Source: Hydrolagus affinis (Eukaryota). From it: DNA of 64,000 bases. Positions within the stretch are counted from its first letter, which is position 1, and the number at the start of each line of letters is the position of its first letter. Position numbers and translations under genes: made by a program. Location of the stretch: NCBI GenBank assembly GCA_012026655.1, contig JAAILG010001153.1, positions 1 through 64,000 on the forward strand, given 5' to 3'. Of this stretch, positions 4,468 through 59,089 are shown piece by piece. A model generated the notes under the pieces. It worked only from the letters and a program-made list of their open reading frames with translations. It was not told the origin of the DNA and did no database searches.

Positions 4468-5360
4468 GTATGCAGATGACACCCAACTCTATCTCTCCGC
4501 TTCCACCCTCATCTCCAGGCCTACCAGCGTCCTGACTGCCTGCCAGTCTGACGTTGAGTCCTGGACGATGGACAACTTTCTTCAGCAACGACAGCAAGAC
4601 TGAGGCTCTCCTGATTGGCTTGTGTCAGCGCCTCCGCACCTCAGGTGCTGGCAGCATCAGCATCCAAGGCTGCACTCTCCATCTTTCAAAGCCAGTCAGG
4701 AACCTGGGTGTCTTGTTTGACCCTGAACCGTCCTTCCTCCCCACATCCCCACCATGACCAGCACTGCCTTCCACCACCTCCGTAATATTTGGATGCTGCC
4801 TGACCTGCTGAGTTTTCCTGGCAACTTCTGTTTTATCTCCATAACATTGTCAGACTTCGCCACAGCCTCACCCCTCTGGCTGCCAAAACCCTTGTCCATG
4901 CATTCATCACATCAAGGCTCGAATATGGAAACTCCCTCCTTGTCAGCCTTCCCAGTTCTTCCCTTCACAAACCACAGATCATCCAGAGCTCTGCAGCTTG
5001 TGTCCTTTCCCGCACCAAGCTCCGCGACCACATCACTCCCATCCTCACCCAGCTCCATTGGCTCCCCAATTCAAGATCTTCGTCCTCCCTTTCAAGGCCA
5101 TTCATGGCCTTCTCCCCTCTTATCCCACAGTCCCTTTGCCTCGCTTCCCCCCCTTGACTCCTTCAAGACCAGTCTTGAGACCCTCCTCTTCGATCGTGCC
5201 TTCTGCTGCCCTTCAACTCTCTCTCTCCCCTCCTAACTCTCTCCCTGCCCTCCCCACTACTCTGCCCCTCCCCCTTGCTTGGGTCCCGAACTGACGAGTC
5301 AGTGCCTTGGCACGTCCTCCCGACATGAAAGGCGCTCTATAAATTTAATTTTGTTGCTGT
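4468..5360 (+). mobile_element. L2 LINE 3' fragment, degenerate, containing a small insertion at 4790-4836
   Basis: Starts atgtatgcagatgacacccaactctat (MYADDTQLY, RT catalytic motif), has KTEALLIG and VRNLGVLFD motifs, and ends in the L2 tail gccttggcacgtcctcccgacatgaaaggcgctctataaat...ttgttg. Confidence 0.9.
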
Positions 5361-15709: not shown

Positions 15710-16039
15710 GGCTTTTCACATCTTAAAGTGCTTCACAGAATATACTATAAAGTGAACAAAACACAAAATATTACAGATGCTGGGAATCTGAAACAAAAAC
15801 CATATTATGAAGTGAATTGACTATATATTTGTGGGAGAACGCGGCAGCCAATCGCACACAGCAGTGTCCAACAAATAAACATGGATTGAGTGACCAAATT
15901 ATTATTGGATTTTTTTGAGGGATTATTCTTAGGTATGTGGAGCAAGGAAACTTGCCCAAGATTTCGGCCTGCTGGTAATCAAACCCAGGTCTCTCGCTTG
16001 CGAGGCCAGTGGTACAACCACTGAGCTACAGGACTCCAC
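15710..16039 (-). mobile_element. tRNA-derived SINE, near full-length, with a 45-nt insertion at 15757-15801
   Basis: Ends in ccactgagctacaggactccac (reverse-complemented head) and contains the gcggcagccaatcgcacacagcagtgtcc core. Confidence 0.88.
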
Positions 16040-38237: not shown

Positions 38238-38313
38238 ATATAAATATGGCTGGTGAACCCAAGCCTTACAGGCCCAAATCTGGAACCAAGAGGCCATTGT
38301 GTGCCCTGTATGG
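38238..38313 (+). CDS. RALYL: RALYL internal coding exon, 76 nt ([26 protein letters not shown]), immediately C-terminal to the RRM
   Basis: The acceptor is ttttctttttcAG (38236-38237) and the donor is GG|GTAAGT (GT at 38314). The translation matches the RALYL segment [25 protein letters not shown]; the INMAGEPKP motif closes the hnRNP C/RALY-family RRM. Confidence 0.93.
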
Positions 38314-55402: not shown

Positions 55403-58177
55403 ACAAATATTGATAGGAGAAAGAAGACAAGAGGAAATGGGAGAGAGAACTCAAAGCATAGGAAGCAAGAGAACATTGTAAGATGCAGATAAGTGAAAAA
55501 GAGATAATAAATTCTGCTTTTCCAGGGGAACAAGAACTTCCTGAATGTCAGTTAATGCGGTTGGACCAAGGCATGTCAGGACCATGAATCTTTTCATGCT
55601 TTCAAGTATTTTAACTGGTTGTCTATAATGAATCAATATGGATTGTATATTGTTAATAGACCAGGAAAAATACAAGGTGGTCAAATCCAGTCCATCAATC
55701 CAACCAGTCTCTGGCAGCCTCTTGTTTTCTGATGCTTCTTGTTTTGTTTGGTCATTTCTTCCTCTCTGCCCTTTCTTTTCTCCATTACTTCTCACCCTGT
55801 CTATTTGTTGCCTCTGACCCTCTGATTCGCCATTCCTCTGGACCTCAAGCAGAGCTGGACATGTGCCCTGTAACAATATAAGTGATGACTTGTGCTTGTA
55901 ACAATATAATATTTGTATTCCTTCAGAATTCTTTGCCAAAATGCACAAGTAAACTGTGCCATTTTGAGTCTTATTTTATAACAAGTTGTGAATCAAACGC
56001 AAGTTTTTTCAAATATGTAAACGGATTCTACTGTGGGAAGTAGCATTCTGAGCTATTTTTGCAAAGTACATTTTCAGAAAGAGAAATATTCTGAAGTGTT
56101 ACTTTACTGTGTTTTGTTGCAAACAAGCTCTTTGTACTTTGGTTGCTAGTCACTCCGATTTTAAGGTGGTATGAGTAGTGTGCTGGTTATCTGCAGTATT
56201 CAGTCTTGTGAGCCAGCAGTGAGAGTCTTTCATTGCTGAAACTTGAAAATTTATCTTGTTTCTGTTCCTATTCATTTTCCTGTTTCAGAAGTTTAGAACA
56301 ATGTTTTATACAGTAGATGTTGTTCTCTCCGTCATACATCATTCAGAAAGGTGGGTGCGGAGGCTAGCTGTTGATGGAAACCATACTTTTTTTTTCTATT
56401 TCTGTCCATCCAATTTCTCAAAAGGCTCCTTCCACACATCTATTCCACCACCAAGTACCGTTAGAACAAAGAACAGACTTGTGTATTTCTAGAAACTTCT
56501 TGTTACAGTTTTATAACTGCTCCATTTCAGTGAGGGAGGCAGACCATCCACTCATATGTAAAAGTTTTGATAACCTAAATTCCACCAGTCTTGGCCCATA
56601 TAAAAATTGTCTTGAAATTTAAGATTACCCTGTATTGTGATAAACTCAAATACATTCTTTATTCGGAAGACTTTTTTCCACAGTTCTTATTAGAAACATA
56701 CAGCTCAGAAGGAGGCCATTCTGGTCACTGAATCTGTTCTGGCTGACAAAGCAAGGATATTATTTCACTCCCATTGCCCCTAACACAGTACTAGACTATT
56801 GTCTCAAACTAGCCTTTATGAGGCAGAAATCGTGATGGTCAAAGATACTTGAGAAACAACAAGTGATGCAGTAGTTCACATCGCAGTTCACAAGCTTAAA
56901 ACCAGGGTGGTTTTAGGTGATAAAGCTCCAATACCCTAATGTCTACTCTTGGGTCCCCAAATTCTTGCTAACCAGAGGCAATAAAATTAATTTCCACACA
57001 TGTTAGATGCCTGACTGACAAAGAAAGAGAGATTTGGATGAAGGTCTTTTGACCTATTTGTTCTCATCCTTCCCATCACAACATCAGTCTTTTTTTTAAT
57101 GAGTACAGCATCTTGGACTCAACCATTCTTTCTGCCCTGGTGTCTCCTCCAGTCATTAATTAACTTTCATAAATACCATTTAGAGATTATAGCATATTCA
57201 TTGGAATATATCCACTTTGCACAGCATTCTGAATTGTAGCAAATGTTGATCTACACAGCTGCATTTCAGAAGACAATGTTTCCTTCCTTTGACAATCTGT
57301 GATTTTTGTCTCATTTTTTTCAAATAAAAAAGGAATCAGAGAAAACTATTCTCTGCATCAAAGAGAACAAAGGGTGAAAGGTCAGTTTCAGAAAGAAAAA
57401 AACTTGCACTTGTCAAATCAACATCACAAACTGCTATATGTAATCACTATATAATAATAATGCTTGTGTTTCATATAATGCCTTATCACATCACCTTAAA
57501 GTACTTCATAGGATATACTGTACTGTAAAACAATGTGACTATGTGTGTACTCTGTGGTGAGACTGTAAGATCTCACAGGTAAATGTTCCTAATACCAGCC
57601 ATGAATGATCATCTCATCTGAAGGATTGTTGTATTTCTGATTATTTGGGGGATTTTGTGGTAAAACTTGAGCATGGTTAAGGCAGTTCATGTGGGAAGAA
57701 CATGCAGTTCTGTAGATGAGGGTAATAAGTGAAGGTTGGAGGGAGTTGAATGCAGAGTTAATGATGTTTCAATGTGTGTGGCACAATATGCATTAATTGT
57801 CCTCAGAAACATGAAAACACTCTGGGAGCTATAAAAGCTAGTAATAAAGAGGTCATCCCACACATGACCATATGCTTGTGAATTTTCTCAATAACCCTCC
57901 TCCCTGGATTGCTGAGTGGAAAACAACCGTTGGAGTCCATATTGTTTCACAAGAAATAAAATAATAATCCTTGCATTTTGTATAGTGCTTTTCATGTCTT
58001 CTACATGTCTCAAAGCGCTTCATGGAATATACTGTAAAGTGAACTGACTGTACTGACACAAAACATGGCACCCAATTGCGCATAGCAATGTCTCACATAC
58101 AGCCATAGATTGAAATGATCAATTTATTATTTTTTTTTGGTGGGTGTAGTAGGGAAACTTATCCAAGGTTTCACCCT

Positions 58178-58294
58178 AACAAAAACAAAAGTTGCTGGGG
58201 AAACTCAGCAGGTCAAACAGCATCCATGGAGAAAGGAAAAGAGTAAACGTTTCGGGTCTACAACCCTTCGTCAGGACAGAATTTTGTGTTTTGT
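58178..58294 (-). mobile_element. 117-bp Penelope-like terminal-repeat fragment with a 14-bp target-site duplication
   Basis: Flanked by CAAGGTTTCACCCT at 58164-58177 and 58295-58308; shares gatgctg..tgacctgctgagttt.cc.gcaactt with the insertion at 4790; carries a hammerhead-like core. Confidence 0.7.
58244..58277 (-). ncRNA. Minimal type I hammerhead ribozyme-like motif (probably degenerate)
   Basis: The minus strand reads GUC-CUGACGA-A-GGGU-UGUAG-ACCC-GAAAC-GUU-UAC: a CUGANGA box, a 4-bp stem II, a GAAA box and a palindromic AAACGUUU in place of stem III. Stem I is weak in this copy. Confidence 0.6.
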
Positions 58295-58399
58295 CAAGGT
58301 TTCACCCTGCCTGGAATAGAAACCAGGTCTACCGCTTGCAAGGCAAGAGCTCTAACCACTGAGCTACAGGACTCCATGTTGAGAGGACTTTTTATAGGC

Positions 58400-58780: not shown

Positions 58781-59089
58781 GTGGAGTCCTGTAGCTCAGG
58801 GGTTAGAGCATTTGCCTTACAAGCTTGAGACCTGTGTTTCGAATGCAAGCAGGTCAGGGTGAAACCTTGGGCAACTTTCCTTACTCCACACTCCCGCAAA
58901 TAAAAATAATTTAAAATTTTTTTCATTTTCATTCCATGGCTGGTTGTGGGATACTGCTGTGCGCAATTGGCTGCCACGTTTCGCTCACAAATATATAGTC
59001 AATTCAATTGACAGTATATTGTGTGAAGCGCTTTGAGACATCTAGAAGACATGAAAAGTGCTATATCAAATGTAAGGATTATTATTATT
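58781..59089 (+). mobile_element. tRNA-derived SINE, full-length
   Basis: gtggagtcctgtagctcaggggttagagc head through tail ctatatcaaatgtaaggattattattat. Confidence 0.93.

What the first reader, a model, noticed from the sequence alone, without database searches (positions are those of the whole stretch)
58164..58308. Hammerhead-ribozyme-bearing 117-bp mini-element inserted with a perfect 14-bp target duplication
Seen: a SINE is split by a 117-bp insert bounded by an exact duplication of CAAGGTTTCACCCT. The insert's minus strand has CUGACGA-A-GGGU[UGUAG]ACCC-GAAAC-GUU with a self-complementary AAACGUUU instead of a stem III hairpin, and its ends are imperfect inverted repeats (acaaaaacaaaagttgctg vs revcomp acaaaacacaaaattctg). 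Established: Penelope-like retroelements and retrozymes carry minimal type I hammerheads with palindromic stem III that can act as dimers. Inference: this is a non-coding, ribozyme-containing mobile unit derived from a Penelope terminal repeat that moved after the SINE did. This copy has a poor stem I and lies antisense to RALYL, so it probably does not cut the pre-mRNA.
Basis: partly seen in the sequence, partly recalled or inferred. Interest (0 to 1): 0.7.

Follow-up and report, generated by a model that had tools for sequence, protein, structure and literature searches.

The report
Back-to-back Penelope stub in a SINE
The 117-base insert is real and is two short, back-to-back pieces of the end of a very common Penelope-type jumping gene, likely laid down in one insertion event, with a damaged ribozyme motif predicted to be inactive; it is mostly ordinary, though the way the family's copies start and stop hints at how this class copies itself.

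Summary
Observation confirmed: an exact 14-bp duplication flanks a 117-bp insert that splits a tRNA-derived SINE, and the minus strand carries a minimal type I hammerhead motif. It is not a separate mini-element with terminal inverted repeats. It is a head-to-head stub of the terminal repeat (pLTR) of a high-copy Penelope-like retroelement with RT, a Neptune-type zinc linker and GIY-YIG. A 100-bp inverted arm ends at the first 3' end site; a 17-bp direct arm is the tip of the 'tail' (second site). The 'imperfect inverted repeats' are those two similar T-rich sites. Of 217 sampled insertions, 125 are head-to-head, and 112 of 114 assignable pairs use one site each; 14 bp is the commonest duplication. 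69 of 150 arms start within -9..+6 of the ribozyme's first core base, not at its cut site, likely the RNA's 5' end. No head-to-tail arrays were found, so it is not a retrozyme. This copy has a private stem I mutation. The architecture is published; this scan noted similar stubs before, here and in other genomes.

The parts
58164..58177 (.). Left copy of the 14-bp target-site duplication, inside the SINE
   Evidence: single in the intact SINE copy
58178..58277 (-). Inverted arm: pLTR from 3 nt before the ribozyme core (-3) to the first 3' end site (+97); 96% identical to a long genomic copy
   Evidence: (blastn to a stretch of L054)
58246..58274 (-). Minimal type I hammerhead motif: CUGACGA 58274-58268, extra A, stem II 58266-58263/58257-58254, GAAA 58253-58250, ACGU palindrome in place of stem III, predicted cut between 58246 and 58245
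   Evidence: architecture as in PMC4209133; no Rfam hit
58245..58245 (-). Private substitution at hammerhead position 1.1 that breaks the core-closing pair of stem I
   Evidence: family base in 279 of 285 arms; 348 of 356 plus-mate reads of run X3, a related organism, show the family base
58278..58294 (+). Direct arm: last 17 nt of the pLTR tail (+117..+133, second 3' end site), 16 of 17 identical
58295..58308 (.). Right copy of the 14-bp target-site duplication
57960..58376 (-). tRNA-derived SINE that was split by the insert (head 58373-58302)
58782..59086 (+). Intact copy of the same SINE family, showing the empty site once at 58856-58869
15755..15800 (-). Second stub of the same Penelope family in the window (tail region only, 98% over 46 bp)
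38238..38313 (+). Exon of an hnRNP C/RALY-family gene; the ribozyme motif lies antisense to it

Best explanation
The insert is two short, back-to-back pieces of the terminal repeat of an abundant Penelope-like retroelement with a Neptune-type protein, likely made in one insertion event in which the element's enzyme would cut the SINE with a 14-base stagger and prime reverse transcription from each cut end at one of two internal start sites on the element's RNA. Shown: arm coordinates, duplication, physical link of the repeat to an RT-linker-GIY-YIG ORF, the one-site-each pairing and the pile-up of 5' ends. Inferred: the arm primed at site 1 ran 100 nt and stopped 3 nt before the ribozyme core, where about half of sampled arms stop, most likely because the template RNA begins there (the upstream pLTR of the mRNA); the arm primed at site 2 stopped after 17 nt; the two cDNA ends were joined head to head. 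The ribozyme is a passenger: family copies do not begin at its cut site, and this copy has lost half of stem I, lacks a same-strand partner nearby and is predicted not to cleave.
For: ORF link: locus L075 holds a pLTR piece, the ORF (tblastn to P0001 residues 43-325 and 359-902), then 3'UTR, ribozyme and tail in one orientation. Its 487-aa frame hits RVT_1 (E 1.5e-6) and 351 long proteins (best 904 aa, 54%, E 6.7e-161; many carry PF00078 plus PF01541). A CX4CxxC linker and a CxxC inside the GIY-YIG core are present. 3' ends of 99 arms fall in two groups, +95..+108 and +130..+135. 125 of 217 insertions are head-to-head; 112 of 114 assignable pairs combine site 1 with site 2; duplication length mode is 14 (43 of 217; 37 of the 125 double-arm inserts). 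69 of 150 arms start in -9..+6 (4.3 per nt) against 0.16 per nt upstream and 0.69 per nt around the cut site at +29. Among 55 pairs where both arms reach the ribozyme, 42 both stop there, 8 both run on, 5 are mixed (Fisher p 1e-6), as expected if both arms share a template end. Two internal RT start sites bounding the tail, cutting and extension of both strands, and no need for ribozyme cleavage were shown in vitro for the anole element (PMC11167929).
Against: No RNA 5' end was mapped: reads from a related organism showed no pile-up of starts and cannot test this. 5 of 55 pairs are mixed. Tandem copies with 3'UTR upstream of an ORF start exist (four loci starting at -42, -129, -275, -303 among 30 examined), so some templates begin further up. 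In D. virilis Penelope the mapped start lies upstream of an intron whose end maps to helix I (PMC2377424, PMC4209133), not at the ribozyme edge. The region -4..+32 folds as a long hairpin that could stop RT by itself. Most paired arms overlap on the RNA (only 12 of 112 nearly or fully non-overlapping), which needs strand displacement or two RNAs. The Pfam RT and GIY-YIG scores are below the curated cut-offs. Sampling used exact patterns and the first-listed (largest) contigs; arm ends from local alignment are good to a few nt only; the duplication finder had no shuffle control.
Confidence: 0.82

Rival explanations
1. The insert is a member of a separate non-autonomous, ribozyme-bearing mini-element (SINE- or retrozyme-like) that is transcribed from solo copies and mobilised in trans by the Penelope protein.
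For: 158 of 217 sampled insertions hold no sequence upstream of -9. If the promoter is internal, as in D. virilis Penelope (PMC2377424), stubs that begin at the start site keep it, and internal priming would hide any 3' flank. One haplotype is commoner in short arms (11 versus 2). Retrozymes derive from pLTRs (10.64898/2026.07.22.740005).
Against: The main haplotypes are shared between short and long arms. No fixed unit or recurring junction was seen. 0 head-to-tail junctions in two genome-wide patterns. No 5' ends at the cut site. Neutral decay of the core (16 of 689 versus 41 of 1690 substitutions, p 1.0).
Confidence: 0.1
2. Same Penelope origin, but the 5' ends pile up because the ribozyme-region hairpin in the RNA or the new cDNA stops reverse transcription, or because hairpin complementarity favours head-to-head joining there, not because the RNA begins there.
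For: The -4..+32 region folds into a three-helix hairpin in intact copies. Short reverse-complement matches lie at several junctions. No RNA start was mapped.
Against: A stop acting on each arm separately predicts about 17 mixed pairs of 55 (my estimate from the arm frequencies), but 5 were seen. Single-arm insertions stop there too. The upstream edge is sharp with a downstream tail. The fold is no more stable than shuffles (z about 0).
Confidence: 0.2
3. The head-to-head form arose by self-priming (snap-back) at a palindrome, and a later central deletion left the 17-bp arm.
For: Self-priming on an antisense template was proposed for inverted pLTRs (PMC3846280). Long palindromes are unstable (general knowledge).
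Against: The two arms here share no sequence (-3..+97 and +117..+133), so neither can be a copy of the other, and the long arm ends exactly at the family's pile-up. 12 of 112 pairs have a site-2 arm starting within 12 nt of, or beyond, the site-1 arm's end. Snap-back does not explain the one-site-each rule.
Confidence: 0.08

Closest known systems
Insertion units of endonuclease-positive Penelope-like elements: 5' truncation, adjacent inverted pLTR, 30-40 bp tail at one end only, target duplication (PMC8557442; PMC3846280)
   Same: Head-to-head inverted arms, tail on one arm only (about 36 nt here), target duplication, ribozyme in the pLTR, partial tandems joining pLTR to the ORF start.
   Different: This copy is minimal and its arms do not overlap; duplications here centre on 13-15 bp, versus 8-10 bp in the rotifer examples; the one-each pairing (112 of 114) and the 5' pile-up are quantified here.
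Poseidon element of the green anole, PAc (PMC11167929)
   Same: Two internal RT start sites bounding the tail; ribozyme cleavage apparently not defining template ends.
   Different: This family has the Neptune/Nematis-type zinc linker, which Penelope/Poseidon lack; the ORF's position relative to the ribozyme was not mapped here; the sites were not assayed.
Minimal type I hammerheads (min-HHR) of metazoan PLE pLTRs (PMC4209133)
   Same: Conserved boxes, extra base between positions 9 and 10.1, G10.1-C11.1 pair, palindromic 15.2-16.2, 4-bp helix I, mostly solo truncated copies, some in close opposite-strand pairs.
   Different: Helix II is 4-5 bp rather than 7-8; the predicted cut triplet is GUU; this copy has a broken helix I.
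Non-LTR retrozymes (PMC7229834; 10.64898/2026.07.22.740005)
   Same: Type I hammerhead, non-coding, related to PLE pLTRs.
   Different: Retrozymes are head-to-tail tandems, typically with canonical hammerheads and circular RNAs; here copies are solo or head-to-head, no tandem junction was found, and ends avoid the cut site.

Membership tests
EN+ Penelope-like element (parent family) | [quoted passage not shown] | tested here: met
   L075 order and tblastn; RVT_1 E 1.5e-6; GIY-YIG E 0.026, both under curated cut-offs; 351 homologues, many with both domains
EN+ Penelope-like element (parent family) | [quoted passage not shown] | tested here: met
   pLTR joined to the ORF 5' region and downstream of the ORF
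EN+ Penelope-like element (parent family) | 30-40 bp tail present at one end; inverted 5'-truncated arm; target duplication | tested here: met
Neptune clade | CX2-5CxxC linker between RT and EN, plus CCHH motif in the EN | tested here: met
   CX4CxxC and CxxC with two downstream histidines in L040, L049, L053, L075; the linker is shared with Nematis
Neptune clade | RT phylogeny grouping with named Neptune elements | not tested
   no named PLE reference proteins were returned
Minimal type I hammerhead of PLEs | Core boxes, helix II, palindromic 15.2-16.2, 4-5 bp helix I (family level) | tested here: met
   78 arms not selected on the core: pair 2.1-1.1 is U-G in 58 and C-G in 12; other helix pairs kept in 58-72 of 78
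Minimal type I hammerhead of PLEs | Intact helix I in this copy | tested here: not met
   2 of 4 pairs; position 1.1 mutated, 2.4 lost at the junction
Minimal type I hammerhead of PLEs | Compensatory covariation | tested here: inconclusive
   only a one-sided C-G/U-G change; no double changes; family too uniform, variation dominated by CpG decay
Minimal type I hammerhead of PLEs | Self-cleavage as dimer or with protein | not testable with these tools
   only folding energies were computed
Non-LTR retrozyme | Head-to-tail tandem units, each with a hammerhead | tested here: not met
   0 matches (exact patterns, fragmented assembly); in L101-L342 six same-strand pairs, five 585-1433 nt apart and one 97 nt apart, not examined further
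Non-LTR retrozyme | Unit ends set by ribozyme cleavage; circular RNA | tested here: inconclusive
   genomic 5' ends are not enriched at +29 (9 of 150 in +23..+35); circles not testable
MITE / DNA transposon | True terminal inverted repeats on a fixed unit | tested here: not met
   the two ends map to different positions of a retroelement repeat; 92 of 217 insertions have one arm only

The most novel reading that the evidence does not exclude
A single Penelope ribonucleoprotein primes both ends of a 14-nt staggered cut under a strict one-site-each rule and runs off the RNA's 5' end, which sits at the front edge of the hammerhead. The ribozyme would then mark the start of the template rather than cut it, this insert would be a twin-priming product caught with non-overlapping arms, and stubs that begin at that edge would keep an internal promoter and could serve as secondary sources without tandems or circles.
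Probability: 0.35. Interest if true: 0.55.

Novelty: new member of a known kind. Interest (0 to 1): 0.27.

Why it matters
As a locus it matters little: one of thousands of old stubs, probably silent. As evidence it is modestly useful. How Penelope-like elements make their inverted, tailed insertions and what their hammerhead does are open questions. The counts here (one start site per arm in 112 of 114 pairs, a 14-bp stagger, 5' ends at the ribozyme's front edge and shared between arms, non-overlapping arms such as this one) give concrete predictions for the existing in vitro system and argue against simple snap-back and against ribozyme-cut templates. My searches found the architecture in print but not these counts; subscription papers and Repbase were not searched.

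Tried and rejected
Rfam gave no hammerhead hit at E up to 10. This is not evidence against a minimal motif, which was defined by a separate descriptor (PMC4209133). Folding gave no support beyond chance (z 0.05, -0.08, 0.14 for three 49-mers). The dimeric hammerhead fold scores -6.1 kcal/mol for this copy and -10.7 to -14.5 for intact copies, while a core-sequestering fold scores better in all (-22.1 to -29.1). Pfam scans of four of five short fragments found nothing. An alternative 5' context shared by L093/L095/L097/L098 was considered as a true 5'UTR and rejected: it is another repeat, and the joined form was found in 7 similar loci, mostly on small contigs, likely duplicates of one insertion. 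A splice acceptor at the AG just before the pile-up was considered; single-arm copies share no upstream exon, only duplication or filler bases. Cap-derived extra G: not evident in 20 single-arm copies, not counted formally. The look-up of sequencing runs listed no RNA holder. Laying three RNA runs of one sample of a related organism showed no pile-up of read starts, and 76-80% of reads ran on into unlike sequence, so the depth drop at the ribozyme edge mirrors genomic stubs and was not used. Runs X1 and X2 gave no contig bridging the site, so no empty allele was seen. The first automated partner search missed some inverted arms and was redone; 11 of 125 pairs were left out of the site count because an arm's 3' end could not be assigned. 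A search of the PMC11167929 supplements found no text for its Fig. S2; that figure may bear on whether the 5' pile-up is already visible in print. The bioRxiv preprint's supplements were not seen.

Full report
Observation. The duplication CAAGGTTTCACCCT stands exactly at 58164-58177 and 58295-58308, around 117 bp. The flanks are the two halves of a minus-strand tRNA-derived SINE (head 58302-58373, 34.4 bits). Aligned separately to an intact copy at 58782-59086, they overlap by exactly these 14 bases, which the intact copy carries once. The insert therefore came after the SINE. The minus strand carries CUGACGA-A-GGGU-UGUAG-ACCC-GAAAC-GUU at 58274-58246. Rfam's hammerhead models do not hit it, but the features match those listed for minimal hammerheads of Penelope-like elements (PMC4209133, parts 1-2 of 4 read).

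The family. The insert found 1474 first-look candidates in the own genome, 40 of them scored. Exact patterns gave 818 matches for the ribozyme core, 2344 for a middle segment and 388 for the tail, with 0 for each reversed control. Walking upstream from longer copies led through a 3'UTR into a GIY-YIG frame, a CX4CxxC linker and an RT. Further upstream the same repeat joins the ORF's 5' region. Locus L075 shows the whole order in one orientation: pLTR piece, ORF (tblastn to P0001 residues 43-325 and 359-902), 3'UTR, ribozyme, tail. Its 487-aa frame hits RVT_1 at E 1.5e-6, just under the curated cut-off, and 351 proteins of 854 residues or more, best 54% identity; many carry RT and GIY-YIG domains, and none is named as a PLE. 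The linker marks Neptune or Nematis rather than Penelope/Poseidon (PMC8557442, passages); no tree was built.

Anatomy of the insert. With the first core base of the ribozyme as 0, 58277-58178 is the parent repeat from -3 to +97 on the minus strand (96%). 58278-58294 is +117..+133 on the plus strand (16 of 17). So the insert is two head-to-head arms with no shared sequence. The 'imperfect inverted repeats' are two T-rich positions at which family copies end: of 99 arms, all ended at +95..+108 or +130..+135. The stretch between is the 30-40 bp tail described for this class (PMC8557442, PMC3846280, passages and discussion). In the anole element its two bounds are internal RT start sites, both target strands are cut and extended, and ribozyme mutants still insert (PMC11167929, parts 1-2 of 4).

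Family statistics. From the first 100 places listed per pattern I held 242 loci (L101-L342), giving 257 anchored matches and 217 distinct insertions; the listing favours large contigs and exact matches. 125 are head-to-head and 92 single-armed. Of 114 pairs with both 3' ends assignable, 112 combine site 1 with site 2 (exceptions L140, L153); 11 pairs were unassignable. A flanking repeat of 7 bp or more was found in 171 of 217, mode 14 bp (43), then 13 (27) and 15 (21); there was no shuffle control, so the shortest may be chance. Among 150 arms anchored away from the ribozyme, 69 start in -9..+6, 8 in -60..-10 and 9 in +23..+35 around the predicted cut at +29 (binomial p below 1e-18 against either flank). 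Where both arms reach the ribozyme, 42 pairs both stop there, 8 both run on and 5 are mixed (Fisher p 1e-6). 12 of 112 pairs resemble this insert in having a site-2 arm that starts near or beyond site 1. Short and long arms share the main haplotypes, with one minor haplotype commoner in short arms (11 versus 2). Two head-to-tail junction patterns found nothing.

The ribozyme. In 78 arms not selected on the core, helix I has four pairs, the first being U-G (58) or C-G (12), and no compensatory double change occurs. 40 of 78 keep the core and 14 of 78 keep core, helices and palindrome. Non-CpG core positions change as often as downstream ones (16 of 689 versus 41 of 1690), CpG positions far more (85 of 458). 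This is neutral decay of inserted copies of a once-selected motif. The window copy has a private change at position 1.1 and lost position 2.4 at the junction, leaving two helix I pairs. Computed folds favour a hairpin that hides the core, in intact copies too. Minimal hammerheads did not cleave as monomers and cleaved poorly as dimers in vitro (PMC4209133), and the anole one needed protein (PMC11167929). This copy is predicted inactive.

Mechanism. Shown: the arms, the duplication, the parent ORF and the end statistics. From the literature: internal priming at two sites and extension of both strands. Inferred: one event in which each end of a 14-nt staggered cut primed at one site; the site-1 cDNA ran to the template's 5' end at the ribozyme's front edge, the site-2 cDNA stopped after 17 nt, and the two were joined. 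The RNA-start step rests on the sharp upstream edge, on single arms stopping there too and on the correlation within pairs. The bases at -7..-2 fit an initiator consensus that I recall and did not test. D. virilis Penelope has an internal promoter in its pLTR, but its start lies upstream of an intron rather than at the ribozyme (PMC2377424, parts 1-3 of 4). RNA reads could not test it. The rivals are a structural stop, snap-back with later deletion, and a separate non-autonomous unit (retrozyme definitions from PMC7229834, passages, and 10.64898/2026.07.22.740005, parts 1-3 of 5).

Novelty. The element class, the ribozyme type and the inverted-plus-tail architecture are published. My searches did not return the one-site-each count or the pile-up at the ribozyme's edge. 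I noted both before looking at earlier scan notes, which report the same pile-up in other genomes and similar stubs in this one; those are unchecked AI notes, not support. Verdict: a real, mostly ordinary new member of a known kind; interest 0.27. Confidence 0.82 in the identity as a PLE insertion by-product, lower (about 0.55) for the RNA-start step.

Noticed in passing
window 15755-15800: A second, 46-bp stub of the same family (tail region only, minus strand), also sitting in SINE-like sequence with an imperfect flanking repeat.
   Followed up: partly
window 4790-4834: An older 45-bp match (87%) to the middle of the same repeat, amid sequence that looks like another repeat.
   Followed up: no
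L152/L363, L153, L367, L028/L130: Copies in which a pLTR is preceded by a short piece of the ORF's 5' region, joined near the ribozyme's front edge (-24 to 0); these look like template jumps at the end of the template.
   Followed up: partly
L093, L095, L097, L098, L344, L345, L347: A pLTR-ORF start insertion beginning at -3, with a second pLTR about 1 kb on in some, appears with the same flank on about 7 mostly small contigs, likely duplicates of one insertion.
   Followed up: partly
L083/L359, L084, L094 (just downstream of the tail): A pyrimidine run ending in AG about 30 nt after the tail looks like a splice acceptor at the start of the ORF region, recalling the introns of Penelope-like elements; L087 begins its ORF part there.
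   Followed up: no
L069:1080-1176, L009:1159-1218, L014:2329-2495: More diverged relatives (74-84%) of the repeat lie near some copies; L069's keeps helix II with a different loop, suggesting older families that could supply covariation.
   Followed up: no
L379-L384: Six loci share the same upstream flank before a tail-plus-ORF start piece, another apparent multi-copy duplication of one old insertion.
   Followed up: no
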